Of a DNA stretch of 64,000 bases, positions 5,001-46,196 are shown one piece after another. Both the position numbers and the translations under genes were made by a program. Location of the stretch: positions 2,170,001 through 2,234,000 of the forward strand of contig OZ374564.1 of the NCBI GenBank assembly GCA_977862235.1. Reading direction: 5' to 3'. This DNA comes from Dudresnaya verticillata. Its lineage: Eukaryota. Numbering within the stretch: the stretch's first letter is position 1; each line of letters starts with the position of its first letter. The notes below the pieces were generated by a model, which worked only from the letters and a program-made list of their open reading frames with translations, did no database searches and had not been told where the DNA came from.

Positions 5001-5561
5001 CAATGATCGCATACGTTGCACCGAAGTCCGAGCGCTCAAGGCGTCGCAGATCGCCGAACTGGAAAATCTTAGGGATCACGTCTATAGAGATCGAAACGAA
5101 CCTTTTCACTGGGACTTGGATCACGCCCCGGAGACAAATGGGAAGCTGAGAAGGGACAGTAGACAGCATAGAGCCCCGAAATGCTTCCGGAGATACCAGA
5201 AGTGGAGCAACTACCCTCACAGGACCTGACCTACAGCCACAACAGAATGGTGGCCGTCAATTATGTTCAGGCAACCGAGCAATGTCCTTTTTACGTGGCA
5301 AAAGTGATGGAAGTTGTGAAAGGGGACGATGGAAAGGTTTCGAAATTGTTGTTGCGGTGCTATGAAGCCAAACACACCGGTAATGTTTTCAGTGCAGCTT
5401 ATAAACCTTCGTTCTACAAAACTAGGCGTGGGGTCGCAAAGGAATGGGAAGAAGACGTCACCGTTGATTGCGTACTTGTGGAGTTTGAGTCGCCCACTCG
5501 AAATAACCGCCTGCCGGTTGCAGTACAGAAGAAGTTGCGGGAATGTCTTCACAAGCAGTAG
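2081..5561 (+). pseudogene. Sola-like (DUF7869-type) DDD transposase with N-terminal LHG/W domain and C-terminal beta-barrel domain
   Basis: Motifs KCSECEE, IIDGADQ, LKLDNCTRENKN and FLPTGHTHSDIDQDFS. In-frame TAG at 4438-4440 and frameshifts near 2800 and 5200. Confidence 0.8.
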
Positions 5562-7400: not shown

Positions 7401-7859
7401 AGTCTTCGGACTGGTGGACTCGCTGGCGCGCATGGCGGCACGACTGGAGGTCGCAGTGAGGGCGGGAGGTACATGCAAGAGGGAGCCGGCTATTCGTACA
7501 GGCGCGGCGGGGTGGGGATATTGGCAGCGGCGAGCCGTTTTGGGGTTGATGCGCGATGCGATATGGAATGCGGGGAGGAGGTGCTGCGCGAGGTGCGCGT
7601 CGCACTGGGTCTTGGATTGGAATGATGGGCATGGGAAGGGGTGGTACTAGTACCAGCACGTAAGTGCGTGAGCACCGCCCGCAACTGGTTTACACCAGAT
7701 TTACCCTGACAGTCAGGCAGTACCAGTCGTGCGGGGCGGCACTGTGCCTTGAACACAGCTCAGGGTGGGCCGGGGATGCGGCGAGCGGGGCCAAGCGTGC
7801 CGAAGCATGAGGGTCGGTGCGCTGGCAGGCGCGCCCGGAGGGCAGCAGGCGGCAGTGCA

Positions 7860-8110
7860 ATTTCTGGGTAGATTTTAATTCGGAAATTCCGAAAGTTTCG
7901 AAACTTTCACGAAAGTTTCGGGGACATTTACCCGTATATGCGGCATGCTGTAACTCCGCAACCGCGCGTGCTATCGCGAAACGGATTACACTATTTTTCT
8001 CAGCTCCCTCTCTCCAGTCCAAAAACGTATAAAAATCGCCATTCTACGAACCTTTTTTCAGTCTGATTCGGAACACAGATTCTGAAATCCCGGAAATCTG
8101 TGTTAAGGGC
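7860..8110 (-). repeat. AT-rich terminal/subterminal block X with palindromes
   Basis: Reverse complement aligns with 25632-25870 and 41121-41345. Contains an 18-bp palindrome GAAAGTTTCGAAACTTTC (7891-7908) and a 10-bp inverted repeat (8072-8081 / 8095-8104). Confidence 0.6.
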
Positions 8111-25631: not shown

Positions 25632-26030
25632 TATAACTCTCGTTTCCCGCGTTCCAGAATGTCCTCTCGAAAACAGACTGACATAAAACGCTTCGAAAGT
25701 ACGTGCGTTCGAAATGGGAGCATCCCCTGAGTACGCTAGTGCAAACGAAATGGGAAACGGAGGAGTAGTTCGTGCGTTATGCCCGTTTGCGGGTTAACCG
25801 CCCAGTGGGTCTGAAATAATTAATTTGTGGGTAATTTTCGAGAAAATGTAATTCATAAATCGAGGCAACCCCGGATACTTCCTTGGGCGCCTCACTGCCC
25901 AGTACACGCTGCTGCAACATTGCAGAACAACTCGTCAGTCCATCTTCGCGCACCCCTCAGCATGCAAAGTACTGTAGCCGTGCTATGACTTCCCTTCCTC
26001 ACCGCATTCCCACCTAACTTCGCGCATTAG
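25632..26030 (+). repeat. Terminal/subterminal block X
   Basis: Direct homology to 41121-41530 (GGAGTAGTTCG, CAGTGGGTCTGAAA, TACTTCC.TGGGCGCCTCA, TGCAGAACAACTCGT). Confidence 0.8.
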
Positions 26031-26199
26031 TCAGAGCTCAACAGCACGCTACATCATTCTCGCCGCGCTCTCTGCTGTTCCCTTGGATTCGGGACCGGTT
26101 CTGCGCCGCTGCGCTCGCGCGCTGCCCTCGCCCGCGTCACCGTAACCTCGGTTCGTTGTCCTCCAATAACCAAGCACACCGCCAGAGTACCACAATTCC

Positions 26200-28300
26200 T
26201 GTATCACCAACGCTACAAGTTGTGCTCGACAGTGCAACGGCATTCATGTAGCGCTTTTGCCATGGACTACCCTACTCTCCGTCTATCTACTGCATGCGGT
26301 TCGGAATGCGACCTGGGACCGATTTTTGTCCGACCTTCAGCGGGGTAACAATTGACACCTCGTTCCGTGCTCCGGATACATCGTACTCCGTCTGTGTGTT
26401 TCCTTTTACATGTAGCGAGCAGTAGCTCGCCAAACACAACCGTTGCCATCGTGACGCTGTAAACCACAAACGCCGACTTCTAGCAGTGTACCTGAACTGC
26501 AGTGCACTCAACACGCTCTCACATAATTTTCCGCACCATGCTTCCTTACTCGCGCCCGTTCCTGTCTTCAAATGCCTCAGCCTCATACACATACACAACT
26601 ATGCCCATCCTCAATTTTCATCAACTACAACTCCTCACTTTCCTTTACTTTATACCTTAGTCAGCTTCAGACTCCGGGTCTTCCTCATCCACGTCTACCC
26701 CCACCACCCCAATATAACCGCTATCCCCTCCAGCACCACTTTCACCGCTTCCCCAACTGCGACTGCATCCACGATCTTGAATCGCGCCCGCCCCACCAAG
26801 TCCATACGAAGACATATAGCATCACTGATGTGACGCCTGGCTCGCGCCCGAGCTTCCGCTAGCTTAGCGCGCAAATGTCTCTGGATCTCCATCACCAGTG
26901 CTTCCGGTACTTCACTACAACTCTCCATCTAAGTCGTCTTAACCAACCCTCACACCAGCACTGCATGGCTCCATTCTATAGACAGAACCGGACACCAGTC
27001 TGAACTTCAGTTGGCCTCGTTTACTCCAACTCTACACATCCTCGCCATGATAGCGACACCCCTGCAGCGTCGGGAATCGGTAACATCCGTACCGTACTTA
27101 GTCTCTGTATGTCAACCCTTTTGCAGACGCGTCGAGTCCCAATCGATGGGAGTCCCCGGTCGAGGCATGTTCTGAATGTTCATCTTTGAGATTCTGCGCT
27201 TATCTTCACGTACATTGCGAACTGCTGCCTAATACTGTCGACGTTTCCGTGCTGACATCTGATCCATTCCATAATCAGAGGGTTTGGAGTCACATCACGC
27301 AGCTTTTGCATTCCTCTCTCCCTTGCTTCTCTCAGGAAGCTGCTCAAGACGAAATCTTTCCCGCGCCCTGCCGCATTATACCCCCATCTTTCCCTATTAT
27401 ATTTGTCATAAAATTCTTAAAGACGGATCTGTCGCAGAGCTGGATCCCCAGAGTTTCTAGTCCGTCTATTTCCTTCCCTGATCCGCAGAAGTACATCAAT
27501 ACACCCTCAATTCTCGACGCCCCGATCCGTTTCACAATCTCGTCTGGAGGCTCTCCTTCCTTGCAAAAGTCGGCTATATGCAGACGTTCCATTTTCTCGG
27601 CCAATTCCACGACATCAAATGCTTCATTCTGCAACTATTTCACACATCGACTTTGCAAAGCCATAAAGGTATCCCTGCTCGATTTGGATATCTTCCGTAC
27701 TGTCATCCAAGTTCCAGGTACGTTTCGAGTGTAACAGCTTGCAGTCCTCAACAACTGAGCGTGAGCAGCTTCCGAGTCTCGACGAATGGTTCTGCATGTT
27801 GCCGTGCCCAGCTGAACATCACTGTGTCTGGCTGCGCTGTGCGCCAGAAATTGGGATCGTAAGCTGCTGTGAGATATGTACCACAGGTTATCTGGTTTCC
27901 GCTTCTCTCAACAAGGTATCTGGGAAAGAGCCGTGGTTAATCACATGTATTCGGGATTCGGTTTGCCCGCGTATTAGTTTTCACACGTGTTTGTACACCT
28001 TGCTGTCCTATATGAATTTCGTTGACGGGAATCAGATTCCCCCGTCCACCTCCGTTTCGGTTGCACTCGGACTGTACGGTCGTCCCGAGGGCAGTTACAT
28101 GACGTAAATACATGTGTCTTTATTCCGTCGTTGAAATAAAGCACCCAGGATCTCCTTCCGATACATGGTGTGATGCTCGTCTCCAAGGCGTAGACTATTG
28201 CGGTAGTCTGTGCGGTCAACGCGGGAATCTCACTTGCCACCTTGCACGCCTCTTCCAGGTTTGATTAAGTTCTTGACTTCTCTCGATAATCCTTCATAGC
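26200..28300 (+). pseudogene. Heavily decayed 'cargo A' gene
   Basis: ATWDRFL vs VPWDAFL, WPRLLQLYTS vs FPNLVKLYLS, and PSLDEW vs PSDIEW occur in the same order as in 7400->5774. Matches are short. Confidence 0.35.
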
Positions 28301-28328
28301 CATCTAGGTAATCACCGTCACATTCAGA

Positions 28329-30936
28329 ATGGGTGCTGGGAAGCGGAAGTCGAGAGGTGCTGGACATAACCAGACCCCTCGATCGACACAGACCGCAAAG
28401 GCTCTATTCGTCGACTTAATGGATGGTTCCGTCAACACAAGAGTAGAACCCGCTTCCTGTATTCCATTGACGGCCATTCGTCCTATTGTGAGGTCTGGAG
28501 TGGAGCGATTAAAGGCGGGCTTTGATGTGTCGCGCAAGGACCTCCACGATCCTCGAGCTATTGAAATTGGATATTTTCCTGGCTCTGACGCTCCCATTGT
28601 AACTAAAATGTCTGGGTTGTTTCTATATTTTGGTAATTGATCACTTACAAAAAAGTTGAACAAAGACGGAACGTCATGCTCGCAAAAAGAATCCATGGAA
28701 ATGTCAAACAATCGGGCGAAATGTTATGGAGTAGTGGACTGGATTCACATGCTTATAGCTATCATTGCACTTCGGGAGGAGGATTACGAGACCTGGAAAA
28801 CTTTGTCATGGCCTCTTACTGTTCTTAGAGGAAGCCATAAACTGCAGCCACGTCGACAATTAGCTCGTCACCAGAATGACAAGTCCGATTCTTCATTCTA
28901 CATCGAGACTACTTCCTTCGAAACTCCTCGTGGCCTGAGAGAGGAGGAAGATCGTCTCACAGAGGTGAATGGCGGGAAAATTACGAATGCCGCCAGAATT
29001 GCTGACGCCTATGACGGATGCAACAATTTCAGTGACAATACTGTTAAACAGACTGCCCAGACTGTCCTTAGACTTTACCACGCAGAAATTGACACAATCG
29101 GAGACATCATTAATGAGGAAAGGGAGGGCTGATTTGGTGTCGATTCGAACTACAGCTGTGGATCACAAGGACATCAGTAAGAGTGCGAACTGTCGAGTGT
29201 ACCGCAAGTTCATCCATATAACATATCCCAAGTCCGCTACAGTGTTCATGAACGCGTCGAAAGCCCCGGATGGCGTACAAGCAGAAATGGCGACTTTATA
29301 CCGTTTGAGAGAATTGCACCGTTTACATAACTTCAAACCGCTGTCTTACCGGTAAACCGTGGAACATTTTCAGAAGGCCTCCGCCGATTTTCGCGAGGTG
29401 ATAAGTTTGAAGCTCTCCGGGAAAGTGACGAGTGGCCAGATTCAATGCAGGTGCTTCACTCGAACCTTCTCAACACACAGAAGATGGATGATGAGGTTGC
29501 GGAAAATATAGGAAATAAAAAGGACATTAAGGCATCTATACTGGAATTGTACAGGGATGTCTGTCCCCAGAAAGCTTCTGTTAAGGAGAGAAATCGCGCC
29601 GACTTGCTTAAGAGCATTGGAGGAAATAAGACAACACATGGTTCAAGACAGTGTCCAGATAATGCCTCTCTGGAAGAGCCGGACTTGCACTGTGATAGTG
29701 CCGAGCGCAATGATTGTGGAGATACCACTCCTTCACCAAAACCCGGGGCACATGTTGATAAACAGGATTGCAAGTCTGTCGCCGCTGGATGTCTTGACAG
29801 TACTACTAGTTCCGGAACAAACACTTCAGAACGGCAGGAAAAAGAGCAAGAATCACTAAATGAGGATGGGAACGGTGGTACAACATATGAAAACGAAAAG
29901 GGGACCTCCAATAGCCAGGCTGGAGACACCGGGGAGGCCACGAATGGCCATCTGGAAGGAAATGCGAAAAATACCCGATCGTCCGCGTCTACCATACAGT
30001 CTGAAAAGCTCAAAACATTAGTTACGGAAGGCGTCGATGTATTGAATTCAATGACGATCAGTTGCCACCACATGAGGTAGAAGGCGTATGACAAGTCTGT
30101 TCGAAAAGACGCGAGTCCACTATTCGACCTCGTACGCACGGACCCTCCGTACTGAATACCGCCTATTTGTTCGAATGCTGGTACATCTTACGACAATTAA
30201 ATCAGCGATGGGGAGATTAAGCAACTCATCGCATTCTGTCCAAAGGTCGTTAAACCCGGTCATTGGGTTTTCATCTTCTGCAGTTTCACTAACGTCGCGA
30301 AGTATCAACGAGCTCTGGTTGATGCTGGGTTAGACTGGCCATAATATTCCTTCACTGTTTGCAAAGATACGAGGGCATTTCAGGGACATCTAAATGACAA
30401 CCCACAGAATGCTACGGAAATAGCCGCATTTGGTCGCCGTCGGGGAACGTACGGGGAAACCTTCAAGCCTGAACTCTCCAGTCCACTTCACGTCTTGGGA
30501 AGAAAAGATCGAAAATGTTCGCAACATTCTCAAGTGTTCCAGTATCGAGACAAAAGCTGCTGAATCCAATGCCCAAATCCCCTGTTCTGATAGAGGAGAA
30601 GAACGTGTTGGCTCTGATGGAGGTCATGAAATTTTCGGTACCGATGCTGGACGCGTTTTAGATGCCTACGGAGGTACCCTGACCACTTGCATTGCAGGAT
30701 TGAGAACGGGGCGTCCGACAGTGGGCATGGAGCAGAACCCCGCAACATTCAAGCCGGCATATGTTCGCTTGAAGAAAGTCGCAGTCGATGTGTGTAATGA
30801 AAAGCAGCGCTCTTTCCTACTCACTGTCGCCAAACAGCAACACCGTGAAACGACTACTGATACTGATTCCTCTGAGAAGAGACGGAAGGGAGTACCGAAT
30901 CAGGAAAATGTGATAACATCAACTGTAACAGACTAG
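28329..30936 (+). pseudogene. ParB/Srx-like domain fused to a beta-class (N6_N4_Mtase-type) DNA amino-methyltransferase
   Basis: N-terminal IRPIVRSGVERLK...PIV...YGVVDWIHMLIAI (28725-28760; each deviation from DGxHRL is one base). C-terminal FDLVRTDPPY (DPPY at 30141-30152), KVVKPGHWVFIFC, EEKNVLALMEVM and GRVLDAYGGTLTTCIAGLRTGRPTVGMEQ (motif I at 30655-30687). Multiple stops and frameshifts. Confidence 0.85.
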
Positions 30937-31047
30937 CAACCCGCGAAACAGGAACCAAATAGTCCGGAAGGCTCTGAATCTGATCCTCTTCGGGGTGCTT
31001 AGAAGGTATTTCTGCTTCAAGACGGAGGTAAATTTGGAACAGTATCT

Positions 31048-32119
31048 GTGCAGTGTAATGCTGAGAATTCCAAAATGACTGAGACTCTCCAAGGAGTGTC
31101 ATTGTCGAAGTTTTCGAGGGAAGGAGAACATCTAGTTTCTCTTTACGAATTCAGCGCATTATCTGGATGTGAGTCCCGGAAGTATCCGTGTAGTTTCACT
31201 GGCCAAGAGGAAGTACCAGAGGCACCGAGTGGTAGGCTGGTGGGGTTCTTCGGATGGGACTTGCACAAGTTGGAATCGGTTTATTAGTACGACATTACGG
31301 TCTGAGCAACCTCCGAGATGCAGATTGGGTATAATCGCCGGGCACGAGCTTTTCAGAATCCTCCGTTCGCAGTATTTATTCCAGATCGAGTGCGGCTTTA
31401 CTTCCATGGCCTTGAGATTCCTGTAACGTGGACAACGACATGCAATATGAACTCCTCAGATGTACAACGCGACTGAATTCCGAGTCTTGACCCCTCGACC
31501 ATGTTGCGTGAAGTTCAGAAGCTTCGGACAGAGGTTCGTGAGATGCTGTCGTTCATTGATGAGGCACCAATGCGCCTGGATGCCATTTATAGCGATTTTT
31601 ACCGCATAAGAAAGGTGGTTGTATAGGTGCTGAGGTTTCCAAGGCAGGATCGAGACAGACTACGTTCAGTTGAAGAAAGGTTGGGAATTGAACACATAGA
31701 AGAGGTGGAAATCGAGTTGGATTCAGGTCCAGAATCAAAACGTTTAGCCCCTCCCGTGTGAGCGCCATTGCACTGCACACCGAAGTGCGCAGTGATAAGG
31801 GGCTGTAAGAGAAATCAGAATGACGCGTCAAACGCTCCCGGAGCTGAGAGGTAAGATTGACGAACTCCGTCTGCAGGCTCACCAACTTCGAACGAGAGCA
31901 AACTATCTCGATGAGCAACTCAGAGCAGTTGCACAAGCGATGAGGGAGATTGTGTATGGTGAAGGTAGGAGAGCTGCTAACGGGCTGAGCATCATTAGAG
32001 GGAGCATTAGGGCCCTATTAAGGACGATTAAGAGAATGTATGGCCCACTACAGAACGAACAGAACCCCGGTTTGGATGGGGGGATATACCGGAAATGTTT
32101 AGCCTTCGGCAATCGTTAG
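31048..32119 (+). other. Cluster of short degenerate ORFs including coiled-coil-like peptides ('cargo B')
   Basis: 31820-32119 is heptad-rich. Weak similarity in layout to 758-1800. Confidence 0.3.
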
Positions 32120-32566
32120 AGTGATCCTGTGTCTCGCGAGAAACTGCAGTTAGTACATGCTCTGAAATAGAAACTGCGTTCTGTTGCATCCTTCTATGTC
32201 GTTTCACGTTCGAGAATCACGACACGCACCCGTATCCGTGCTTGAAATGACATAAGTACGAACCCTCTCACTATTCCCATGGCCACCAAAAGCAGAGAAG
32301 GGAACAGACAGTGCAATCGACGGTAATGCCGCGGAGGACGACTCCTTGGGCTGTGCGCTGTGCGCAGGAAATTTGGACTTGCGAGTACGTTTCTGCTTCA
32401 CATGGGCGCCGGCTCGAAACCCGACGCGGGTTCAGCAACTATAGCCTCGGCGCGAACAGGAAGAACCGGCCGCAGTGTGCATGGCGCGCGGCATGGTGCG
32501 CGAGGTGCACGCACAAATCTGGCGACGAGCGCCGACCGGAGGCAGAAGGTGTAGACCGAGCCCCGG

Positions 32567-32872
32567 ATAGGTTTTCATAGCATGACCTTGCAGAAACCTA
32601 AAGACTAACATGAATATTGACGAATAGGTTTTCACGGCGCGCGAGATCGAATATCTGCTTAATAGGTATTTCTACACTGAATCTGGAAATGCCTATATAG
32701 GTATTTTCCAAATCACTTTCACAAAACCTAATAGAATAGGTTTTCCTGTCGGCGCGTCAGAAATAACTTTATAGGTATTTGTAAGCACGCAAAAAGAATA
32801 CCTATTAGAAAGGTTTTTGCGTCGCCGGGTCGAGAAAACCTAAAATCTAATATCAATATTGCCGTATAGGTC
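32567..32872. repeat. Array of ATAGGT(T/A)TT motifs in both orientations
   Basis: About ten TAGGT/ACCTA cores in about 300 AT-rich bases, as seen in subterminal transposase-binding arrays. Confidence 0.7.
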
Positions 32873-34203
32873 CTGGCGGCTCGCATTCCCAGAGACATAT
32901 CCAGCCCACATATGTGGCCGCCCCATGGGCACCTCGGATGCATACCGGAGAAACGTCCGGTGGCCGACTACTCCCGCATACCAGTCGCGTCGAATGTCCT
33001 CACCGTTTCCTCGCCGCCGCGCTTGCTGCGCATCCCGCGTTCTGACTTGTTCGCCTCGGAGACTGTGTCGCGCTGGCGGCGGAAGAGGTGTTCCTGTCGA
33101 CGCATTCGGTGCCATGGGTTGAAGCACGGGTCGTCGGAGTGACTTCATCGTGGAACATCGCACCGCGTGCTACCAACCGCGTCAAGCAACCTCCTCTCCG
33201 CGCCGCTCTCGTAGCTACCATTTTCTGTTGGTTGTGGCGACACAATCTCACCCTCCCTGTTAGAGGCATGCCGAACAATGCATCGCTCATTCTAGATGGC
33301 TTTGTCCAGTCGTGTGTTTATCCCGTCGTACACTACGGTAGTAACCACCGACTTGCAGGGCCTGCAGCAAACCGTATACGTCGTACTCGCTGTTGATGCC
33401 CTGGCGGAATACTATGAGAACTTCTGCTGTGCTTCTGATATTGCTTTGGGGAATAACCTATGGAGTGAGTGAAGATGTAGAAGAAAACCGAGAGTAACAG
33501 CGACGACGAGGATGTGGACAGAGGTGATGAAGTAGGTTTTCTTGTCTTGAAGGAAGAGGGACTTGGATGCATTTGTCGATGCCATCCAATACTTGAGCAC
33601 AGTTCGGACGCATTATGCGTCGCAGTATGGGGCGCACTGAAGCCATTGCGGTTGTGGGCGTCAATGCTTTGACGACACGCATTTTCTTCCATTTTGCGCG
33701 ACCGCTACGAAATGAGATCAATCGTCTCGACGCTACAAGCTGTACCTGGGCTCCTCGAAAATACTTTTCTCTGGCACTGCGCTCAGAGTATGAAGCACTA
33801 GAAGAACGCATGACTTCACTCGGGCGCACGCTACCGAGTCTTACCGAACCCCGACGGGCGCTGCTTCTTCCCGACCATCGCGTGTGTATCCCCGTTATTC
33901 TCGACCCGATTCTGATGGATGGACCACTGTTCTTGATTCCCATCCGCCCGCTCCTCCGTCGGCTTTGTGCCCAGATGTAACCGACACTGCGATGCCTGCG
34001 GCTGAGTAATGGAAGAAAAAACAACCCTCTTTCAAAAATGCCCTCGTCCGGACATCGTCTTTGCACTTCGTATCCCCACCGTCAAATATATTCCAAATTG
34101 TCTTCGTGCGGACTGGCACGCTTAATGCTTCCATCTTTTTAACCGATTCGCAGTCGCATCTACATGTACTGAAAAAGAAGAACGCTTCGCTCGTGTTTGT
34201 GCT

Positions 34204-36465
34204 GTGGCAAAGCTCGTGCTGCGGTTTAATGGACGCGGAGAACCCAGAAATGGCAATAAGGCTGCACTGATTCGCCGTTTGCGTGACCGCATTCAACTGG
34301 CAATTCGCGGGCAATGGAATGACCTTTGGGAGCAAGCCTCCAGTGCCTTTCCCTCGCTTCCCAATACTTCTTGCCAACCTACAGTTGATCCTTTCCGCCA
34401 ATGCCGTCGGTTTATGGTCGAGGGGGCCATCAGTAAGGCTGCACGCGCTTTGTGCTCTACTACTTCTACTGTTATTGCTAATCCCAATACCAAGACGGTC
34501 ATGGAATCTCTTCACCCGCGTCAAAAAATTCCAGTTAAACCCCGCTTGCCACAATCACTCCCAGCTGCATATACATTCAACGAGGCGGATGTAAGACGGG
34601 CTCTTAGAAGTCTTCCAGTACACAGCTCACCTGGCCCGGATGGTCTCCGTCCGCTTCATCTTAAGGCGTTAACGCATGCCCCGGGTGGTTCGGAGCCATC
34701 CCACTCTGCAATCGTGGCTCTGACCGCCTTTGTCAACAAATGTGCTACGGGCTCTTCACCTCCTCGCTACAGTGCCTGGTTTGGGGGTGCCTTGCTTCTG
34801 GGTCTTCCGAAGCACCCATCGTGTGTTTCTAAGCTTCGTCCTATTGCCATTGGTGGCATCCTTCGTCGTTTCGTTGCCCGCCTGTTGATGAAGAAGATTG
34901 CCCAGGACAATGCTATTCGTGAATACCTTCTTCCTCATCAATTTGCAGTGGGGATCCCTCATGGAGCCGAATCTATTATTCACGCCATACGTTCTTTCGT
35001 GGAGTCTAATACTGAGCAAGACTATGTCCTTCTTAAGCTTGATGCCACCAACGCTTTTAACTGTGTTGAGCGTTCTATTATTCTCAGTGAAGTTATCAAA
35101 AGAGCTCCTGGCATTGCAAAGTTTGTGCATTTCCTTTTCTCGACTGAACCCGTTCTTCTATTTGGTCAGTTTCAGTTGTTCAGTCGGACAGGTACACAGC
35201 AGGGTGATCCCTTGAGCATGCTACTTTTTGCTCTTGCGATTCATCCCCTGCTCATCAACATGCTCTCTACGTTCGCCTCCATCAAACTTCTTGCTGCATA
35301 TGCTGATGACATTCATGTTGCTGTTCCGCGTTCTATTGCTTTCGATGTTATCCAGTTTCTAAAGACCCAAGGCCCCAAAATTGGTTTCAATCTGCACATA
35401 GCAATGGGGAAAACAGAAGCTTGGTGGCCTTCTTTATCGTCCCGTCGTGTTTCTCGTTCCCACTCCCTAGGTTGTCCTATCAAAAATCATTCTTTTATCA
35501 CAGTTCTGGGCGCCCCTATTGGCAGTACTGAGGGCTGTTTACAACATCTAAGAACTAAGCATGAGCCCATCAAATATTTCTGGGCCCAACTGAAGCAGCT
35601 TAATGATCCTCAACTCGGTTTTCATTTATTACGGTACTGTGCTGGAACTTCCAAGCTTTCATACCTACTGCGATGCACTCCCCCGCAACTAACCCAAGCC
35701 ATTTCATTAACACATGACTGTGGCATGCGTGGAGTGTTTGAACACACACACTTTCCACTGTCGGATGAATCCTGGGATATGGTTTCGCTTCCCATGCGAC
35801 ACGGTGGACTAGGTCTTACAAATGCCCGTCACATTGCCCACTGCAGCTATATCACCTCCGTCTTGTCCTCTCTCGCCTGGATTCGATGCCTGGTACCTTT
35901 TGATTCTCCTGCTTTGCACCATTTCCTCGCCCCGTCTCTTCATAACATTAGCGAACAGCAACTACTCCATGAAGATCGTGAAAAATGCAGTGTTTCTTCT
36001 ATCTTGTCGGCCGCATCTTCCATAGGCCATGGTGTCGTTCCCGCATTGTCCCAAGATCTTCTTCCCTATATTCAACGAAAATTGCGACACGACCTCATGT
36101 CCCAGATGACTACTCAGCATAGCTCTCGTGCTCGAGTACGGATTCAATCTACCTATACTGTCAACTCTAGCCGCCCTTTCAGTGCCCTCCCATATGCATC
36201 TTCTTCTACCCGCGTGCAACCCGACATATGGCTCACCATGCTCAAACTCAGACTGGGTGTGGCGATCTTCCGTGGTGATCGCCCTTTTCCTGCTTGTCTC
36301 CATGGCACATCCGCTGAAGTTCCACTCCTTGATATCTTTGGACACCATGCCACAATCTGTCGATCGGGAACTGGCAGCATTCGCCGCCATGATACCCTCC
36401 GAAATCAACTTGGGGCTTTTTTTCGTAATACTGCTCGGAACCATGGCGTTACTGTTCAGCTTTAA
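34204..36465 (+). CDS. Reverse transcriptase of the CRE-like element (open fragment of a disrupted ORF)
   Basis: SSPGPDG, LRPIAIG, QFAVGIPHGAE, LDATNAFN, GTQQGDPLS, AYADD, GGLGL and DIFGHHATIC...RRHD. Confidence 0.9.
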   Translation: MAKLVLRFNGRGEPRNGNKAALIRRLRDRIQLAIRGQWNDLWEQASSAFPSLPNTSCQPTVDPFRQCRRFMVEGAISKAARALCSTTSTVIANPNTKTVMESLHPRQKIPVKPRLPQSLPAAYTFNEADVRRALRSLPVHSSPGPDGLRPLHLKALTHAPGGSEPSHSAIVALTAFVNKCATGSSPPRYSAWFGGALLLGLPKHPSCVSKLRPIAIGGILRRFVARLLMKKIAQDNAIREYLLPHQFAVGIPHGAESIIHAIRSFVESNTEQDYVLLKLDATNAFNCVERSIILSEVIKRAPGIAKFVHFLFSTEPVLLFGQFQLFSRTGTQQGDPLSMLLFALAIHPLLINMLSTFASIKLLAAYADDIHVAVPRSIAFDVIQFLKTQGPKIGFNLHIAMGKTEAWWPSLSSRRVSRSHSLGCPIKNHSFITVLGAPIGSTEGCLQHLRTKHEPIKYFWAQLKQLNDPQLGFHLLRYCAGTSKLSYLLRCTPPQLTQAISLTHDCGMRGVFEHTHFPLSDESWDMVSLPMRHGGLGLTNARHIAHCSYITSVLSSLAWIRCLVPFDSPALHHFLAPSLHNISEQQLLHEDREKCSVSSILSAASSIGHGVVPALSQDLLPYIQRKLRHDLMSQMTTQHSSRARVRIQSTYTVNSSRPFSALPYASSSTRVQPDIWLTMLKLRLGVAIFRGDRPFPACLHGTSAEVPLLDIFGHHATICRSGTGSIRRHDTLRNQLGAFFRNTARNHGVTVQL

Positions 36466-36507
36466 CGCAACTTTTCCTACCTAGAGGAGACTGGGGATTC
36501 CCGAGTT

Positions 36508-37014
36508 ATGGCGTCTTCTGCACGCACTGCTTCAGAAAGGCGTCGCGATTCCCGTCAATTACAACGTACTGAAGACCGTTTCGAAGAAGACCGACGTGAC
36601 CATCTTCGTATGGATCTCTATGTTGATGACCCTGCGTTTGCTCCCCTCCCGCAAGCATTTGACGTCTCCGTGGTGACACCACACCATCCAACTACACTGT
36701 CCAAAACGCCTCGCTCTCAACATCAAGCTATTCACCGCCGCGAGCAAGCTAAAGCCCGTCATTATCGTCGCTTATGTTCCACTAACCGGATAGAACTCCA
36801 TCCTATGGTGATGGACATCTATGGTGCCATTGGTTCTGGGTTCGATCGAGGCGCTCAACGCGTGGAGAATTTCCTAGCTGCTATGAAGGGCACTTCGCCG
36901 ATATCTGAGAAACTATCTCTTCTCACGCACCTCACCTCTCTTGTACTTCAATCTGTCGCGGTGGCTGTTAACCGCCGTTTACTCTTCGACCGTCGCCTTT
37001 CAGATGCGTTTTAG
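36508..37014 (+). CDS. Restriction-like endonuclease C-terminus, frameshifted from RT
   Basis: RMDL..., FDVSVV, RREQAKARHY and HPMVMDIYGA. Confidence 0.8.
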   Translation: MASSARTASERRRDSRQLQRTEDRFEEDRRDHLRMDLYVDDPAFAPLPQAFDVSVVTPHHPTTLSKTPRSQHQAIHRREQAKARHYRRLCSTNRIELHPMVMDIYGAIGSGFDRGAQRVENFLAAMKGTSPISEKLSLLTHLTSLVLQSVAVAVNRRLLFDRRLSDAF

Positions 37015-37149
37015 ATAAGCCCCCTTACGGGGCTGTAGTCTTTCCTATGCATAAAGGTCTCCATCTCCATTTAAAACCAAGCAGGAGGTCTTCGCGTACG
37101 TATTACAAAACACAAGCCTTCCTTGCATACCTTAAGGGACAGCGTCATT

Positions 37150-37750
37150 GCTGCTGTTAGCGGTTGCCGGCCATATTGCCTCAGGTACAAACAGTTTCAG
37201 TGTAGCTGTTCGTCTGCGTTTCGCCAACGACAGATATCAGGGATATGAATATAAGCCGGCTAGGCGAGTCAAAGACGCAATGGGATACGGCAATGAGTCC
37301 ATGAGATGAGACAATGACCGCATGGCATGAGATGTGGGTATCGTCTAGTGGAAGTACGGCAATGTGGATTTCTATGCGCATGTCACGCGACCATCTAGAG
37401 ATACTAAACCTTTTGCAATACACTTCTGGAAACCACAACGAGCGCACTTTGAAATACAAGTTGTTCCTAGTGCATGCGATAAAGCGGTATGGGTGTGCCA
37501 AGATGGAAGTTGAGAAATTGTTTTGTCGTGCTCGCAATATGTATATACACGAAGCACGAATAGTTTCCGTCGCGGGTATTAGATAGCAATTCGCCATTGA
37601 AAGAGACACGGTAAGCCAATAGTAGCCTGATCCTCATGAAAACTCTATAGAGCTTCATGGAGAATGTGGCTTTTGACGCAAATGCCACAGAAGCGCAGGT
37701 TTGTAGACAGGTTGTGACTTAAAAAGCGGGAACGTCGTCTTTCGTAAGAC
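37150..37750 (-). pseudogene. Fragment of unknown 'cargo A' gene
   Basis: YRVSFNGELLSNTRDGNY resembles YRVRLHSERSASNTKG*Y at 21.7 kb. Confidence 0.35.
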
Positions 37751-38129
37751 GTAAGGGCGGGAGATGAAAGCAACTGGCCATTGTCAAACGAGTTGATTTG
37801 CGGAGGTACAGGAGCATTCTGACAAGAGAATGAAGGACTAATACCTCAATCAAACAAAGCTCTTAGCCACAGCCAGCAAGACGTGTGCTGTCACTATCTC
37901 CACATCGTTAATGTTTTGTGTGTCACACTACTCCAACCGTCTAACTCGCAGCCTGAGAGAAGAGCAAAGCCACTCTCCCAACACGCGCTTGCCCGCGACC
38001 GCCAACCGCAAATGCAGCAGGCTCGCAATGCGCCCGCTGTCAGACTGGAGCTATCTTGATGGCTCTCTTCAATGTGAGTAGATTCCAAATGATCCACCAG
38101 AAGCGTTAAAGGTTCAATGGCCTGTATTG

Positions 38130-41117
38130 CTACGATTTCTGTAGGTAGTCTCGGATATTCTTCTTAACTGTTTGGGGCAGTAATCTATTAGAGAGCTTCT
38201 CAAGCGCAATGAGGACAGACGCGGCATCCACATCGTCAGTCCATACCTTCTTGGTTCTGGCGTAGACAGCATGTGCGATATTTACCGTCCCACGCGTCCT
38301 GCCCTTAACCAACCTCATACCACCTGATTGACGGGGTGCACACGACTCCCGCGCTATCCTTCTTCCAGCCCTGTACCTGCGCGATCCAGAAAGGCACAAT
38401 ATTGTCCTTAATTTTCAGGACCACGAAACGGTTGACCCCATACGTCAAGTCAGCACGCCGAGCATCATGCTCAGCGTCATCCTGCTCGTCGGCGTCTCTA
38501 TCTGCATCCTCCACCAGTTCCCTATCGCTTTCAACAACTTGCTCCAACTTTCTATATACACCCTTCTTCTCGAATACCTGTGTCAGGTCCCAATGCAGAG
38601 GCTCCTCGAGATCGCGGAAGACCTAATCGCGCAATGTTTGCAACTCCTTTAGCTTCGCAGAGTCATTGATTCGTAGCTCCTCTGAGCGTAAGCGCTTGCT
38701 TACTTCGTCTTTGTCTAGAGGGGAGATCATCACAGTGGCAGGTGTCATTTACAGCTCGGGTGGCAATAGTAAGAAACTTGTTGAGGTCCCTTCGTTTTCA
38801 GCGGCCCCCACGAAGCCTTGCAACCCACTCTCACTTTACACCTCGTCTTTTAATAACCTGTAGTAGCGTCCAGTTCCGATCGTGAGAATTTGAAGTAGCG
38901 AAATGGAGAGAAAGTCTGAACACCGCCAATACATTAATCCTGTTTGCACAGTCCTGACTAGTTCGCGATGTGTCGCATGCGCGTTGATATGGGCTCGGAG
39001 GGGCATGACTGACGGAGGTACTCCATCAAGGCCTGCATGGTTACTGCGTCGTGACCCGACGCCTCCTGGAGGTGCAACTAAATATTTGATCGATGTTGGC
39101 ATGTGTGTGCTCGATTGGCAAGAGACACATATGCACTTCAGTGATAACCACCCACTATACAAGCGACTCCAAGTATGCGAGTAGGAAACTGTCTTTGTTC
39201 TCCCGTGTTCAGTTGTCTCCATGTATAAATAGAGTGCCCCGCACTTCCCCTGTATCCCATTTGGTTGCTAACAGGCGGTGCAAAGCCTCAACGATATGGT
39301 TTGCACCGGATTCGAACTCGGCAGTCATTGTTAATAACGAATATAGATCTGCAGCCCCGTGGTCCAGTACTCCTATTAGCTTAGCTGACAGCTCGTGACC
39401 AGTTGTAGCTTTGGACCTGACATGGAAGTTTGGCATACCATACGCCGATTGACCTCCACCATCACTAATCATTGAGCAATACCATGTCGGCGAGAGTTTT
39501 GCCATGTCACATTTCTTCCGGTACGCGATTCTCTCCAGCCTTACCATCTCTATATGGCGCCTGCAACGTTCTCGCAACCCCTCTGTCGCCGTGTGGTCCG
39601 CACCCCCAGACGTCATACCGGCAAGTTGGTCCCTCACAGTCTCTCACTCGGCACACTTCGCAAATCGGTGCTTTTTGGGCACTTTGATTCTTGAACAATT
39701 TGTAGTCCAAATGGTGTAGAAGTAACTCTGAGGGGAGGCGTCTTTCCTCGGTGCAATTTGGAAAGCTCACGCACAAATACCTCGTACACCACCTATTTCT
39801 GAAAGAAGCGGAGATGGAGCTCGTCTCTGTCTAGAATTGCGTCAGATGTAGCTTCTGATAACCTCTCTAAGAAACTCACAATACGTTCAAGAGCGTCTGT
39901 TGAAGAATCACAAAGGCTCCTGCCCGGGGACAGCGCTCCTTCGGGCCTGTCTCTTCCCTTTCGTTGACGATTTAAAGTCTCTCGAAAATCCAAATGCCCG
40001 TTCCAGAAACGTGTAACATACAGGTCTGCCATTGCGGAAATACATATTAGAGTCGGGTTCCACGAGGCTTCGTAGATATGCCCACCGAACTGCTCCGTTC
40101 ATTCCAATGGTACCCCTCGCTTATTCCTGAAGCATGGTTTCGACTGACAGGATATCCATGAAGGAACCTTTTTGCTCTCAAGGTCTTCCAGCCGTTTAAG
40201 GCGCTTGTTGGCCATCAAAGGTGCACTACGGTTGCCGTTCGGCCTGCTGTTATAAATGCAGCATGGCTTCTGCCGGGTGTGCTCTTGTGCTATGTCCACA
40301 TCCCCCTCTTCCCGTCCTGGGCTACCAGCATCATTTTCCTCCCTACGAGGGATGGGCGCCTTCTTTATTTCAACTGGTCCTTCTGATTCCACACCCTCCT
40401 CCTCTTCCGGAGTATCGTGATCGTTGCGGTCGGCCTCCGGTACGTATGCCTCGTCGCCAGCTTCTTCTGATTCCGAAGCGTCACGCGTACTCCTGTGCAT
40501 TTCTGTTCCGTTGTTTTGATGAACAGTCTTAGTCTATCTGCAATATTTGAGATCTCTGTTTGAGGTCGCCATGGCGGTCTGTTTCGAGGTGTGTATTGCA
40601 GAGGTGATGCTGATAATACTGGCGGAGGTGTTGTTTCCAGGGAATCGACAGTCAGCCTCTTTCCTCGTTGGCGACCCTTAGGCGGGGTTTTCACACAACG
40701 TTCCTTCCCGGGTAGACGGATCGCGGGGAGGGGTATGTCTCCTCTAGTACTGGAGCGGGCGGCGACATGTTTGTTGCGCAGCTGCGCCACATCCCAGACA
40801 TTTATTCCAACCTCAAGACCGCGAAGAGTAGCAGGTGGATCTTCGACGCCCTTCTAGGTGTAACGGTAAGTATTCGAAGAAAAATCTTCTTATATCTTCT
40901 CCTTGTAAATGACCGCCAATGTTTGCCCTTCCTCCTCGACCTGGTGCAGATAATGCCCATGTAGTCTAGTGCAATAGCAACCTGTGCTGTCAGCTGCAAT
41001 AGCCTCTGGAGGGGCGAGTGGCTCAATGCTGCGGACTATCAGACATTTGTCGAGCAACTGAACACGCCTTCGACTAGGGGAAGAAAGAATTTCCTTCTCA
41101 TTATTACCTTCAAGCAC
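38130..41117 (-). pseudogene. Sola-like transposase copy 2
   Basis: ISDGGGQ, FESGANHIVEALHRLL, HGDN*TRENK and C-terminal PFWIAQV...RWYE. Close nucleotide homology to 43984-46196. Confidence 0.85.
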
Positions 41118-41120
41118 CGC

Positions 41121-41530
41121 AAAGACTGGTTTCCCGCATTTCAGAATGTACTTTCAAAAACAGTCTGAAATAAAACGCTCTAAAAGTACCTGCGTTGGAA
41201 AGGGGAGAGTCCCCTGAACACGCTGGTGTAAACGGGATAGAAAACTAAGGAGTAGTTCGCGGGTTATATCGGTTTGCATGCCAACCCGGCAGTGGGTCTG
41301 AAAGAATTAATTTTGCTGTAATTTCTGATATTTTTTAATTCCGATTTTGAGGTAACCTAAGTTACTTCCATGGGCGCCTCATCGCGCAGTATACGCTGCA
41401 GCCGCACAGTATACGGTACCGCAACATGCAGAACAACTCGTTAGTTCGATACAGGTCACACTGCAACTTTCAGAGTACTGCAGCACTGAAATTTAATTTT
41501 CCTGGCCTCCCTTCCACCTATCTGGGTGCA
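41121..41530 (+). repeat. Terminal/subterminal block X
   Basis: Direct homology to 25632-26030. Confidence 0.8.
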
Positions 41531-41656: not shown

Positions 41657-43560
41657 CTACCCATACTGGAGCACGATTTGGGAACCGGAAACCGTACTAG
41701 AGCAGTCAGCGCGCACCCCTAAACTCAATTCTGCGTTCAGCAGTGGCACGCCTATTTTCTTCCCTATGTTTGCATTCCGAAGTCGAACTGTTCCATCACG
41801 TGACCCTGAAACCACTAGAAAGCCATCCTTACTTACCGCCACCCCGCTCACAGAGCCTATCCCACCCATCCTAGACACTCCATCTTGTTCCTTTCTCTCT
41901 GCGTCCCAGACGCAAACGGTTCTATCAATTGAGCCGGACAATACACGAATACAGTCATTGGTTATCAATACACTCAAGACCGAGCCAGCATGTCCGGCTA
42001 GAGGCTTTCCAACTTGGTTCCCAGCCTCAGCATCCCACACGCTAATTGTACTGTCACGAGATCGTGGCACGACACGGGCACTGTCCGGGCTCACTGGCAC
42101 GCTATAAACCCAGTCCATGTGGCACCCCAGAGGCTCCTTGGCAAACAAACCTTGGTCAACATCTCACACACAAACTATCCTGTCAGATGACCCAGAAACG
42201 CCACGCCCAGAGTCCCTACTTACTTCCGTGCTCATGACAAAGCCTGTATGGCCCGTAGCATGCCTTTGAGTTAGCCGCCCAGTCTCAACATGCCACACTT
42301 GCACTGAGCCTTCGTTCGATACTGACACCACACGAGTGCAGCTGGCAGTCAATGGGACACCCCATATGAGATCTGCATGAATAAAAATAGGGGGTGCAAC
42401 ATCTTCTCCTGTCTCCGTACTACAAATATGAACCGTCCCATCACATGATCCCGATGCCGCAAACGTTCCTTCTGGACAAATTACAACGTTTTGCACCTTA
42501 AAGATGAAGCTTTCAAGTTGTCCGCATGGCTACGGAAGGCATCGCATACCAACCGCTTGTTCACACAACCGCAATCCATTGTCTGCATGGCCATGGAAGG
42601 CATCACATACCAACTTGCCGTTTTCTGTGCTCCAGAATCGACCCGACCCATTCGAGAAACCCATGGAAACAAAGTGAACATTCCTATAAATAGCTGCGAA
42701 AGTTGCTTAGATCCTCGCATGAATCCGTGTAGCACTTGAACTACCAGTTCCAAGTGTGTTTGTCCCTGCGACATTAGGTCCCCGGTGCTGTCCACACCCT
42801 GTGAGATACGCAATCATTCCGACTTCAACCTCACAATATTGCTCTCCTCGAAATCAAAATGTCGTGCGACAAACCGTTCGGTCCTATGTTTCTTCCTACG
42901 ACTCATGGCTACTTGCTCTTTGTTGCAGCATGCGCATGACATCATATGCCACTTGAAACGTTTCTAGAAGTGCGTCATTCGCTCCAATTAAGCATGGCAT
43001 CAACGATTTAACCCGCCGTTTTGGGGCACATCTCTCAACCTCATATACCAGCTTCTGTAAGTGTGCGGTATTTGTTCCCGTACTGAGCAACCTCGTGTAC
43101 AACCGGAACCATGCTCGGACCGAAGTTTCGGCTTTGTGAGAAAGACGTATGCGAGCAATCTTGCACACAGTCTTCAGCAACGCAGCACCTATGCTTTCCT
43201 TCCAGTCCGACGCACTAGATCGATCCCCCGATTCCCATCGAACTCAGTGCTTCACAACCTAAACCGTATCTTTGTTCAAATGAAACGACGTTCCCTTGAC
43301 TCGCAAGCTCTTCACCTCTTGCTGAATAGAGGTGGTGACTTCCATCACATTTACGACCAAAGTTACTTGCTAGTATATAAAGTCGCATCAAGATGTTGCT
43401 CTTAAGATAGTTAGACTTGCAGGTTCCATCAACAACAAACAGACATTAATATGGCTGGATCCAGTCCTGGGCGTTCTGAATGACAAGATCAAAGTGTCCC
43501 TGTCGCAGCTCTCGTGACAATCGTTTAACTACACATGCACCAACTGCTTGAAAAGCTCCT
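41657..43560 (-). pseudogene. WD40-repeat protein, possibly the C-terminal part of an NB-ARC/WD40 gene
   Basis: Repeated GH..V.SV..S.D...VSGS.D.TV.VWD units at 41720-42500. The upstream helical region is decayed and the NB-ARC assignment is inference. Confidence 0.8.
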
Positions 43561-43983
43561 GGATTAGCTCGTCAGCCGTTCCATTCGCTCTAAGCTTAGT
43601 ATGAACCAGGAACGACGGGAAAATGGAAACACAGGATTAACAAAACAGCAACCGACAGTGCAAAGAGCGATAAGACTGAAGACACGTTACAGTCCGTGGT
43701 GCTTGCCTATGATGCGAGGGCATCGCCGCCCATCTTCACAGACGCCTTAGGTCGAGATCTGTTGCGTGACCTCGTTCTGAAAATCCTCATTCTGAAAATA
43801 TCAGAACCTCCTAGAATCAGACTGGAAAATCAGGTGCTTCCACACCACTCAGCGATATCTTTCAGACGTACCATTAGCCCCGTCGCCTGCCCTCGTGTCC
43901 CTACTACTAATTACCAGTGGTTTCACCAGCTGGAAGGAGACCCCCGCAACGGGGACCGTAACAGTTGACGAGTTGCAACAGAA

Positions 43984-46196
43984 ATGTCAATGTCTTCAGT
44001 TGGGATGCCTGAAGGCAACGAGGGGAAGGAATATGTTACTTCCTCTACTCGAAGCCGTGTTCAGTTGCTCGACAAAGGGCTGATAGTCCGCAGAATTGAG
44101 CCGCTCGCCCCGCAAGAGACTAGTGCAGAGGACAGCACAGGATGCTATTGCACTAGACTACATGGGCAGTATCTGCACGAAGTCGAGTAGGAAGGGAAAA
44201 CATTGGCGGTCATTTACAAGGTGAAGATAGAAGAAGAGTTTGCTTTGAAGCCATACCGTTACACCTATAAGGGCGTCAAAGATCTTTCTGCTACTCTTCG
44301 CTGTCTTGAGGTTGAAATGCATGCTTGGGACGTGTCGCAGATGCGCAACAAACAGGTTGCCGGCCGCTCCAATAGTAGCCCTCACACACAAACCCCCGCG
44401 ACGCGTCTAAACAGTCGTAAACAGGCCGTTAAAACACATACCGAGGCTGGGACACGAGGAAAGAGACTCACTATGGATTCCCTGCAAACAGCACCGTCGC
44501 CGGCATTATCCGCGTCACCTCTTCAGTACATACCTCGAACCATACCTGCATGGCGCCCTCGGCCACAGGTTTTAAATCTGGCAGATGGACCTACTCCGCA
44601 AGCCGAAGAATCTATTGACGAGGAATACGTACCGGGGAGTGAGTGGGACGATAAAGATACGCTTTAAAAGGAGGCGGGGGCTGAAACAGAAGGACCAGTG
44701 GAACCAAACGCAGTGTCCAGCCCTCCTGGGGAGGAAAATGATGCTACTAGCCCAGGGCCAGAAGAGGGAGATCTGCACAGAGCACAAGAGAACACCCGGC
44801 AGAAGCTAAAACCCCTAAAACCCCTAAATAGACGGTACGTGTATCTGAACAGGCCGAAAGGAACTCATTCCGTTTCTTTGATGGCCAACAAGCGCCGTAA
44901 ACGGCTGGAAGACCTTGAGGGCACAAACATGGATCGTGGGTATACTGTTAGTCCAAACAATGCTTTGTAACAATCGAAAGGACATATGTTCAGGAGGAAG
45001 CGAGGGGTACCATTGCAATGAACGGGGCAGCTCGGCAGGCATATCTACGAAGCCTCTTGGACCCAACTCTAATATTTACTTCTTCAACGGCAGACCGCTG
45101 TGTTACACGTTTCTGGAACGGGCTTTTGGATTTTCACGGAACTTGCAGTCTTCAACTAAAGGGACGAGACAGGCCCGAAGGCAGGCAGTCCCCGGTAAGA
45201 GTATGCGAGATGCTTCCACAGACTCTCTTGAACTCATTTTGAGTCTCGTAGACAGGTTAGTGGCAGCTACATCTGACGCAATGCGCGGCAGAGACAAGCT
45301 CCATCTGCCCTTCTTTCAAAAGCAGGCGGTTTACGACGTCCATATGTGAACTTGCGAAATTGTACCCAGGAGAGACGCCACCCTCTCAGAGCTACTTTTA
45401 CACTGTTTGGAATACACATTTCGCAAGGATCAAAGTGCGCAAAACGTACCAATTCGCGAAGTGTGCCGAGTGCGAGACTGTGAGGGACCAACTTGCCCGC
45501 ATGACCTCAGGGGGTGCGGACCAGACGGCGACGGAGGGTTTGAGAGAGCGCCGCAGGCGGCATCTAGAGATGGTAAGGCAAGAGAGAATCGAGTACCAGA
45601 AGAAATGCGACATGGCAAAACTGTCTCTGGCAAGGCTATTGCTCCATGATTATTGATGGTGCTGATCAATCAGCTGACGGTCTACCACACTTCCATGTTC
45701 GATCGAAAGCGACAACAGGCCACGCACTGGCAGCAATATTGATAGGAGTGCTGTACCACGGCTGTGCAGACCGATTGTCATTATTAATACTGACCGCTGA
45801 GTTCGAATCCGGTGCAAACCATATCGTTGAAGCGTTGCACCGTGTGTTATCAACCAAATGGGACAGAGGGGAGGTGCGTGGTACTCTATTTCTGCAAGGA
45901 GAAACTATACGAGAGAGCAAAAATACGTTCCTACTCGCCTACTTGGAGTCACTCATGTCGTGGGGGGTATTCACTGAAGTTCATATGTCTTTCTTGCAAA
46001 TCGGGTACACACCTGCCGATATTGACCAAAAATTTAGTTGGGCCTCCAGGAGGCTTCGGGTCCACGACTCAGTCACCATCTAGGACTTGATGGAGGAATG
46101 TCGTCAACCATTCACCCCCGAGCCGATAGTGACGCGCATGCGACACATCTCGAACTGGTCAGGACTCTGCAAACAGGAAAATGTAATGTGTGGGTT
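43984..46196 (+). pseudogene. Sola-like transposase copy 3, 3'-truncated
   Basis: FAKCAECE, IIDGADQ, RESKN and GYTPADIDQKFS. Homology to copy 2 ends near 46196 at Gypsy 2. Confidence 0.85.

What the first reader, a model, noticed from the sequence alone, without database searches (positions are those of the whole stretch)
25632..41117. Candidate large Sola-like transposon carrying the methyltransferase as cargo
Seen: element 1 read from 8110 leftwards is block X, cargo A, then a convergent transposase. From 25632 rightwards the order is block X, cargo A, ParB-MTase, small ORFs, a motif array, a CRE insertion, a second cargo A fragment, then convergent transposase copy 2. The start and the relative orientation are the same. 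Inference: about 11 kb (excluding the CRE) may be one multi-gene DNA transposon coupling a DDD transposase to a DNA methylase, a combination I do not recognise as described. The alternative is adjacent fragments of separate insertions.
Basis: inference. Interest (0 to 1): 0.85.

Follow-up and report, generated by a model that had tools for sequence, protein, structure and literature searches.

The report
Decayed Sola transposon with ParB-methyltransferase cargo
This stretch holds the broken remains of a cut-and-paste transposase gene and a broken ParB-plus-DNA-methyltransferase gene that likely formed one large Sola1-type transposon, a gene pairing already reported in the brown alga Ectocarpus, so it is a further dead example of a known kind whose proposed self-methylation is still untested.

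Summary
The family-level idea holds, but it is not new. The window has a broken ParB-like + beta-class N4/N6 DNA-methyltransferase gene (28329-31287, +, DPPY intact) convergent with a broken DUF7869 DDD transposase (T2, 38133-41122, -). The two genes travel together elsewhere. They sit on the same DNA in 5 of 28 related loci with at least 2 kb flank (divergent, tandem or convergent). Five of 17 long methylase contigs share an exact length with a transposase contig (null mean 0.06). The window's two genes group with one such pair. The pairing is published: Sola1-1_Ec32 (PMC12477816), with similar accessory genes in red-algal Plavaka elements.

'Cargo A' homology was not detected by five methods. 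Position 41117 is not an element end: a sister copy (block X, WD40 fragment, T3) cuts T2 at its 5' end. Block X is probably a long terminal repeat found on either side of transposases. No TIR pair or TSD was found, so that 25635-41122 is one element remains inference (about 0.7). Extras: a palindrome array follows the methylase here and in 3 of 5 relatives; one subclade lacks the catalytic motif.

The parts
25635..26040 (+). Block X copy 2; likely the long terminal inverted repeat at the 3' (downstream-of-transposase) end of element A. Exact first base uncertain by 2-4 nt
   Evidence: 76% to 41126-41402; three-way alignment; begins just after a 46-nt repeat end shared with 17331-17376
26040..28320 (.).
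   Evidence: No Pfam family above cut-off (HTH_23 E 0.012 only); no Atlas hit for 27347-27634; no homology to element 1
28329..31287 (+). Broken ParB/Srx-like + HTH + beta-class N4/N6 DNA methyltransferase gene with a C-terminal domain of about 110 aa; 8 in-frame stops, 4 frame changes
   Evidence: Profile hits; DPPY 30141-30152, DAYGGT 30661-30678; folds shown on intact homologues; stops counted
30976..31278 (+). Domain shared between the methylase C-terminus and the transposase N-terminus
   Evidence: Profile E 1.4e-13 here; also hits T1 2117-2482, T2 40997-40773, T3 44128-44349 and 6 of 62 transposase proteins
31290..32550 (.). Short ORF remnants of unknown nature
   Evidence: No Pfam family above cut-off
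32567..32873 (.). Array of ATAGGT(A/T)TT / AAACCTA inverted units; candidate parS-like site, or a subterminal array ending ...TATAGGTCC
   Evidence: 7 matches against 0.45 expected; repeats listed
34204..37014 (+). Nested non-LTR retrotransposon ORF (RT; one in-frame stop at 36463-36465); 5' boundary between about 32880 and 34200 unresolved
   Evidence: RVT_1 E 4.2e-11; no TSD found
37040..38130 (.).
   Evidence: No Pfam hit on the + strand frames; no homology to other intervals
38133..41122 (-). T2: broken DUF7869 DDD transposase, 3' end complete, first codons and 5' end missing
   Evidence: Profile E 7e-104; many stops and frame changes; best full-length match P0005
41122..41540 (+). Block X copy 3; likely the 5' terminal repeat of sister element B, which interrupts T2
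41660..42813 (-). WD40-repeat gene fragment inside element B
   Evidence: WD40 E 8.7e-17
43980..46188 (+). T3: broken transposase of element B, cut at 46188 by a Gypsy-type integrase region
   Evidence: 76% to T2 over 2248 nt; DUF7869 E 1e-22 and rve hit at 46834-47550
2081..5561 (+). T1: least decayed transposase (element 1), one stop in the core plus frame changes
   Evidence: DUF7869 E 3e-35 and 7e-44; stops counted
7844..8105 (-). Block X copy 1, distant; likely the 3' terminal repeat of element 1
   Evidence: nhmmer E 3.8e-5

Best explanation
The stretch 25635-41122 is likely the surviving 3' part of one dead Sola1-type cut-and-paste transposon that carried a ParB-methyltransferase accessory gene, later interrupted by a non-LTR retrotransposon and cut at its 5' end by a sister copy.
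Shown: the broken genes, their domains, the repeat array, the three X blocks, and linkage of the two genes in related DNA.
Inferred mechanism when intact: the DDD transposase would bind the long X repeats at both ends and move the element (X lies 3' of T1 and T2 and 5' of T3, as a terminal inverted repeat would). The accessory protein would load through its ParB/HTH part on the palindrome array downstream of its own gene and methylate nearby element DNA (N6-adenine or N4-cytosine), marking the element for expression or protecting it from silencing. I put one element at about 0.7, the family-level gene link at about 0.95, and self-methylation at about 0.4. This copy can do none of it now.
For: Direct linkage: L008 has an intact 929-aa ParB-MTase-like ORF and an intact 912-aa DUF7869 ORF on one 8182-nt contig. 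L012, L013 and L021 have Pfam N6_N4_Mtase above cut-off beside DUF7869. L017 has a DPPY fragment at the contig edge. L021 has the window's layout: convergent genes with palindromes between them.
Indirect linkage: 5 of 17 distinct methylase contig lengths of 6000 or more equal one of 21 transposase contig lengths; null mean 0.065, maximum 3 in 100,000.
Congruence: the window methylase falls in a 5-row clade with P0085 (SH-aLRT 96), and T2 in a 10-row clade with P0005 (96). P0005 is T2's best match, and both proteins have contig length 8748.
Domains: three Asp, a His and a CxxC are invariant in 40 of 40 transposases. MTase fold matches M.BceJIV, M1.HpyAVI and CcrM (Foldseek E 4e-10 to 3e-9). The N-terminal fold matches PadC (Z 9.6, rmsd 2.4, 97 aligned) and pNOB8 ParB (Z 8.8, rmsd 3.9, 168 aligned).
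Precedent: a 282-bp imperfect TIR and the same gene pair in Sola1-1_Ec32.
Against: No partner TIR and no TSD in the window, so the boundaries are not proven. About 4.7 kb inside the stretch is unassigned. Cargo A homology was not detected. The closest intact locus with DNA (L008) is divergent, not convergent. The methylase is optional: only 1 of the 5 closest loci with at least 2 kb flank has it, and L007 lacks it over 5.2 and 4.5 kb of flank. Contig-length matching gives false pairs: 2 of 42 short lengths matched (null 0.42), both too short or from different sources. Both trees are quick searches without bootstrap, on decayed partial window rows. Only 15 of 37 full-length homologues have exact DPPY and the 10 of the L008 clade lack it, so methylation cannot be the whole function. 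L012 shows no clear array downstream of its methylase.
Confidence: 0.7

Rival explanations
1. A mosaic of separate insertions of the same family: X2 and the methylase belong to one Sola-type copy, T2 to another that landed nearby, as happens in this nested region.
For: Three transposase copies and three X blocks lie within 45 kb, and element B inserted straight into T2, so the family nests locally. The nearest intact locus is divergent. No TSD ties the ends.
Against: T2 and the methylase both group with the same inferred contig pair. The convergent layout with an array between the genes exists in L021. No extra X block lies between 26040 and 41120 (only a weak E 0.043 piece at 27781-27884).
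Confidence: 0.2
2. The methylase and array are the end of a different element nested inside an X-T2 copy, terminating at ...TATAGGTCC (32873). Accessory genes of this kind move between transposon superfamilies.
For: The array ends in a sequence whose reverse, GGACC, equals the start of an insect Sola1 TIR (PMC3845634 table passage). In L008 the inverted units lie at the contig end. Plavaka accessory genes are reported on several TE families.
Against: No matching left terminus anywhere in the window (best outside match 15 of 24). In L013 and L021 the palindromes are internal, between the two genes. The methylase shares a 110-aa domain with this transposase family.
Confidence: 0.1

Closest known systems
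Sola1-1_Ec32 of Ectocarpus (PMC12477816; read: passages, section 5 part 2, supplement rows)
   Same: Giant Sola1 element with a 1104-aa ParB-like + N4C/N6A methyltransferase gene on the strand opposite the transposase; long imperfect TIR (282 bp); nested insertions; the authors propose self-binding and self-modification.
   Different: That element is 21,549 bp and complete with a 4-bp TSD; this one is truncated and broken. Whether its genes converge or diverge is in a figure I could not see. No sequence comparison was possible, so orthology is not shown.
Plavaka (EnSpm) elements of Bostrychia with PAG1-3 (bioRxiv 10.1101/2025.02.11.637652; read: passages; supplements not seen)
   Same: DNA transposon with a PF01555 methylase gene, a ParB-domain gene and inverted-repeat arrays beside the ParB gene; accessory genes move between TE families in red algae.
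   Different: Different transposase superfamily. ParB is fused to a 2OG oxygenase and the methylase to SET, in separate genes; here ParB and methylase are one gene without SET (L013 and L021 do have methylase + SET).
Sola2 transposases (PMC3627910; read: passages and supplement 2, part 1 of 2)
   Same: Three Asp in the same order, with an F-x-x-x-H-x-x-x-x-D type third motif.
   Different: Motifs differ (DFAENY, SDG..QYKN, FFATSHGK..CD against IIDGADQ, LDNC.RENKN, FLP.GHTH.DID); cargo is Fanzor1; TIRs are 12-21 bp.
Bacterial beta-class amino-methyltransferases (M1.HpyAVI, M.BceJIV, CcrM) and bdelloid N4CMT
   Same: Fold and motif order, DPPY before the SAM-binding motif.
   Different: About 20% identity; no ParB fusion in those structures; whether the target is N6A or N4C cannot be told from this.

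Membership tests
Sola superfamily (Sola1) | DDD catalytic triad transposase | tested here: met
   Asp at 273, 355 and 395/397 of P0003 invariant in 40 of 40 aligned proteins. T2 keeps the first two and the last Asp. That Sola is DDD is recalled; the defining paper was not held.
Sola superfamily (Sola1) | Sequence clusters with Repbase Sola1 transposases | not testable with these tools
   No Repbase sequences held. DUF7869 appears in 0 papers of the library. Motifs differ from the printed Sola2 alignment, so Sola1 is by elimination and recall.
Sola superfamily (Sola1) | Terminal inverted repeats at both ends of one copy | tested here: inconclusive
   X lies 3' of T1 and T2 and 5' of T3, but no copy has both ends in the window; none of the closest loci showed a TIR pair.
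Sola superfamily (Sola1) | 4-bp AT-rich target site duplication | tested here: inconclusive
   Flanks TTAA, ATAA, CAAA (or 2 nt further out) are compatible, but there is no paired end to compare. AWWT/AWDT from PMC3845634.
Sola1-1_Ec32-like elements with ParB-MTase accessory gene | ParB-like N-terminal domain | tested here: met
   On intact homologues: PadC Z 9.6, pNOB8 ParB Z 8.8; ParB, Noc and Srx fill the top Foldseek ranks though E > 0.001; DndB in 5 of 20 members. The window copy matches the profile at E 8e-67, but its DGxHR motif is decayed.
Sola1-1_Ec32-like elements with ParB-MTase accessory gene | N4C/N6A methyltransferase domain | tested here: met
   PF01555 above cut-off in intact homologues; window fragment weak alone (E 0.011); DPPY and DAYGGT present.
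Sola1-1_Ec32-like elements with ParB-MTase accessory gene | Accessory gene on the strand opposite the transposase, inside the element | tested here: inconclusive
   Opposite strand is met; 'inside one element' is inferred.
Plavaka/EnSpm with PAG cassette | EnSpm-type transposase and a three-gene PAG cassette with methylase-SET | tested here: not met
   The transposase is DUF7869; no SET hit in the window gene or its near homologues.
Sola2 | DFAENY / SDG..QYKN / FFATSHGK motifs | tested here: not met
   Compared by eye.

The most novel reading that the evidence does not exclude
Sola1-type transposons across distant eukaryotes carry a portable self-marking cassette: a ParB clamp loads on a parS-like palindrome array just downstream of its own gene and spreads N6A/N4C methylation over the element. 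A domain shared by the methylase C-terminus and the transposase N-terminus couples the two proteins, and one subclade has kept the clamp while losing catalysis. This would be a bacterial-style ParB/parS system reused as a eukaryotic anti-silencing device, with intact members (L012; P0085 with P0005) ready to test.
Probability: 0.3. Interest if true: 0.7.

Novelty: new member of a known kind. Interest (0 to 1): 0.3.

Why it matters
The window copy itself is dead and the gene pairing is in print, so it matters little alone. The added value is comparative. The pairing recurs in three layouts and on divergent transposases. Palindrome arrays follow the methylase gene in the window and in 3 of 5 relatives examined. 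A catalytically altered subclade exists. A shared domain links the two genes. These give concrete substrates and intact proteins for the published but, in my searches, untested idea that such transposons methylate themselves.

Tried and rejected
No whole genome is held, and the loci's records are not searchable, so other genomic copies and empty sites could not be collected. No sequencing run was listed.
The word-seeded search with the broken MTase fragment found nothing among longer proteins; HMMER found 53. Viral contigs: no relative in 3 scans.
Cargo A homology was rejected after five methods. Atlas: no usable hit for 5777-6382 or 27347-27634, which shows neither absence nor novelty.
Block X was not found in any of 84 loci. 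No TSD for the retroelement. No partner terminus for the array.
The L015 methylase-profile hit was dropped as low-complexity linker. L026 and L028 were counted apart: near-identical, ParB-like + OTU, no methylase Pfam hit. Length matches 4334 and 3394 were dropped as chance.
A sequence search of the PDB with the N-terminal profile found no ParB; only the fold search did. The wide structural search of the full-length model was not obtained. The shared 110-aa domain has no Pfam hit; its likeness to En/Spm TnpA-type domains is recalled only.
The transposase tree's label test was not significant (63 of 500 shuffles as low), so methylase-linked transposases are not shown to cluster.
Earlier findings: none returned. 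Bao et al. 2009 and the journal version of the Bostrychia paper were not held; Iyer 2011 was not read. Bostrychia Supplemental Table 6, not seen, may already list red-algal Sola elements with these genes.
Full report
Setting. The window is dense in decayed mobile elements and looks eukaryotic; a red alga is my inference from the element types and the literature, not a tool result.

What is in the sequence. Self-comparison shows three copies of one transposase: T1 (2081-5561, +), T2 (38133-41122, -) and T3 (about 43980-46188, +). T2 and T3 are 76% identical over 2248 nt. All three hit DUF7869: T1 at E 3e-35, T3 at 1e-22, a T2 piece at 0.006. Block X occurs three times. X2 (25639) and X3 (41126) are 76% identical over 277 nt; X1 (8105 leftwards) is distant but real (E 3.8e-5). 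Between X2 and T2 lie a broken methylase gene (28329-31287), a 7-copy ATAGGTWTT array and a non-LTR RT ORF. About 4.7 kb is unassigned.

Cargo A. I found no homology between the interval beside X1 and any interval in the finding, using blastn, tblastx, phmmer, nhmmer and a frameshift-tolerant alignment whose positive controls scored 91 and 206 against a background of 54 +/- 7.7. The best cargo score was 64.

The right end. T2's homology to T3 stops where X3 begins (41122-41126), a few codons into the ORF. X3 is followed by a WD40 fragment and T3, which is cut at 46188 by a Gypsy-type region. So 41117 is a break made by a sister copy, and element A's 5' end is lost or lies beyond the window. 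X sits downstream of T1 and T2 and upstream of T3, the pattern expected of a long terminal inverted repeat. This is inference, since no copy has both ends here.

The proteins. T1 found 59 relatives among 7195 candidates. In 40 aligned sequences three catalytic-type Asp positions, a His and a CxxC are invariant. The methylase fragment found 53 relatives by HMMER, many of them 800-1100 aa. A model of P0085 (mean pLDDT 77) matches beta-class amino-methyltransferases. A model of the N-terminal domain (pLDDT 86) matches ParB/Srx folds followed by an HTH. Exact DPPY is present in 15 of 37 full-length homologues; the 10 of the L008 clade have AIPS-like replacements. A domain of about 110 aa ends the window methylase and begins all three window transposases and 6 of 62 transposase proteins.

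Linkage. The metagenome scan kept the best 80 of 509 confirmed stretches and the genome scan gave 4. Of these 84 loci, 28 have at least 2 kb of flank on a side. Five carry a methylase domain: L008 and L012 (divergent, intact), L017 (divergent, cut by the contig edge), L013 (tandem) and L021 (convergent). Two more (L026, L028) carry a ParB-like/OTU protein. Among the five closest loci with such flank only L008 has it, so the gene is optional. The window methylase groups with P0085 and T2 with P0005 (quick trees, partial rows), and both have contig length 8748. Inverted or palindromic units lie just downstream of the methylase or ParB gene in L008, L013 and L021; L026 has a direct tandem array and L012 none that I could see.

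Mechanism. Shown: domain content and linkage. Inferred: the transposase acts on the X repeats, the ParB/HTH part binds the array, and the methylase marks element DNA. The last step is about 0.4 likely, lowered by the catalytically altered subclade and the decayed ParB motif in this copy. With 8 stops and 4 frame changes in the methylase and many more in T2, this copy is inactive.

Comparison with what is known. PMC12477816 (passages, section 5 part 2, supplement rows) describes Sola1-1_Ec32: 21,549 bp, 282-bp imperfect TIR, 4-bp TSD, and a 1104-aa ParB-like + N4/N6 methyltransferase gene opposite the transposase, with the same self-modification hypothesis. The Bostrychia preprint (passages) reports methylase-SET and ParB-oxygenase genes with inverted-repeat arrays in Plavaka elements, moving among TE families. 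PMC3627910 (passages) notes methyltransferases in virus-borne Mariner elements. PMC4738411 (passages) lists other ParB-linked and transposon-linked adenine methylases but not this one. PMC3845634, PMC4455052 and PMC5751038 were read as passages for Sola features. It works like Sola1-1_Ec32. Formal Sola1 membership rests on the DDD motifs and exclusion of Sola2; TIR pairing, TSD and Repbase clustering were inconclusive or untestable.

Verdict. Observation partly confirmed; interpretation right at family level, unproven for this copy's boundaries, and not novel. New member of a known kind; interest 0.3.

Noticed in passing
window 56270-63330 (+): Little-decayed Gypsy-type LTR retrotransposon region with gag, RT, RNase H, integrase and chromodomain.
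   Followed up: no
window about 10800-14600 and 48600-52500 (-): Two related decayed ORF sets, partly similar to 59400-60500; probably further LTR retroelements, no Pfam hit above cut-off.
   Followed up: no
window 115-609 (+): Mitochondrial-carrier gene fragment (E 7e-6) upstream of T1; may be captured host DNA like the WD40 fragment in element B.
   Followed up: no
window 30976-31278, 2117-2482, 40773-40997, 44128-44349: An unnamed domain of about 110 aa at the methylase C-terminus and the transposase N-terminus; P0005 has it while its inferred contig partner P0085 lacks it.
   Followed up: partly
L008:338-3124 and P0066-P0077: A conserved subclade with intact ORFs whose catalytic DPPY is replaced by AIPS-like sequence, suggesting a non-catalytic role.
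   Followed up: partly
L013:2360-5743 and L021:4516-5970: Methylase + SET fusions beside DUF7869 transposases, the PAG2 architecture on a Sola-type element; ParB-like motifs lie in upstream reading frames.
   Followed up: partly
L026:711-4283 and L028:3-1151: OTU protease + ParB-like protein divergent to the transposase, with a 22-nt tandem array at the contig end.
   Followed up: partly
L017, L034, L059: Repeated long palindromes scattered through loci of this transposase family.
   Followed up: no
L081-L084 and P0049: This eukaryote-type transposase occurs on short contigs of bacterial MAG records, probably binning contamination.
   Followed up: no
window 7891-7920: Palindromic GAAAGTTTCG units in the inner part of X1.
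   Followed up: no
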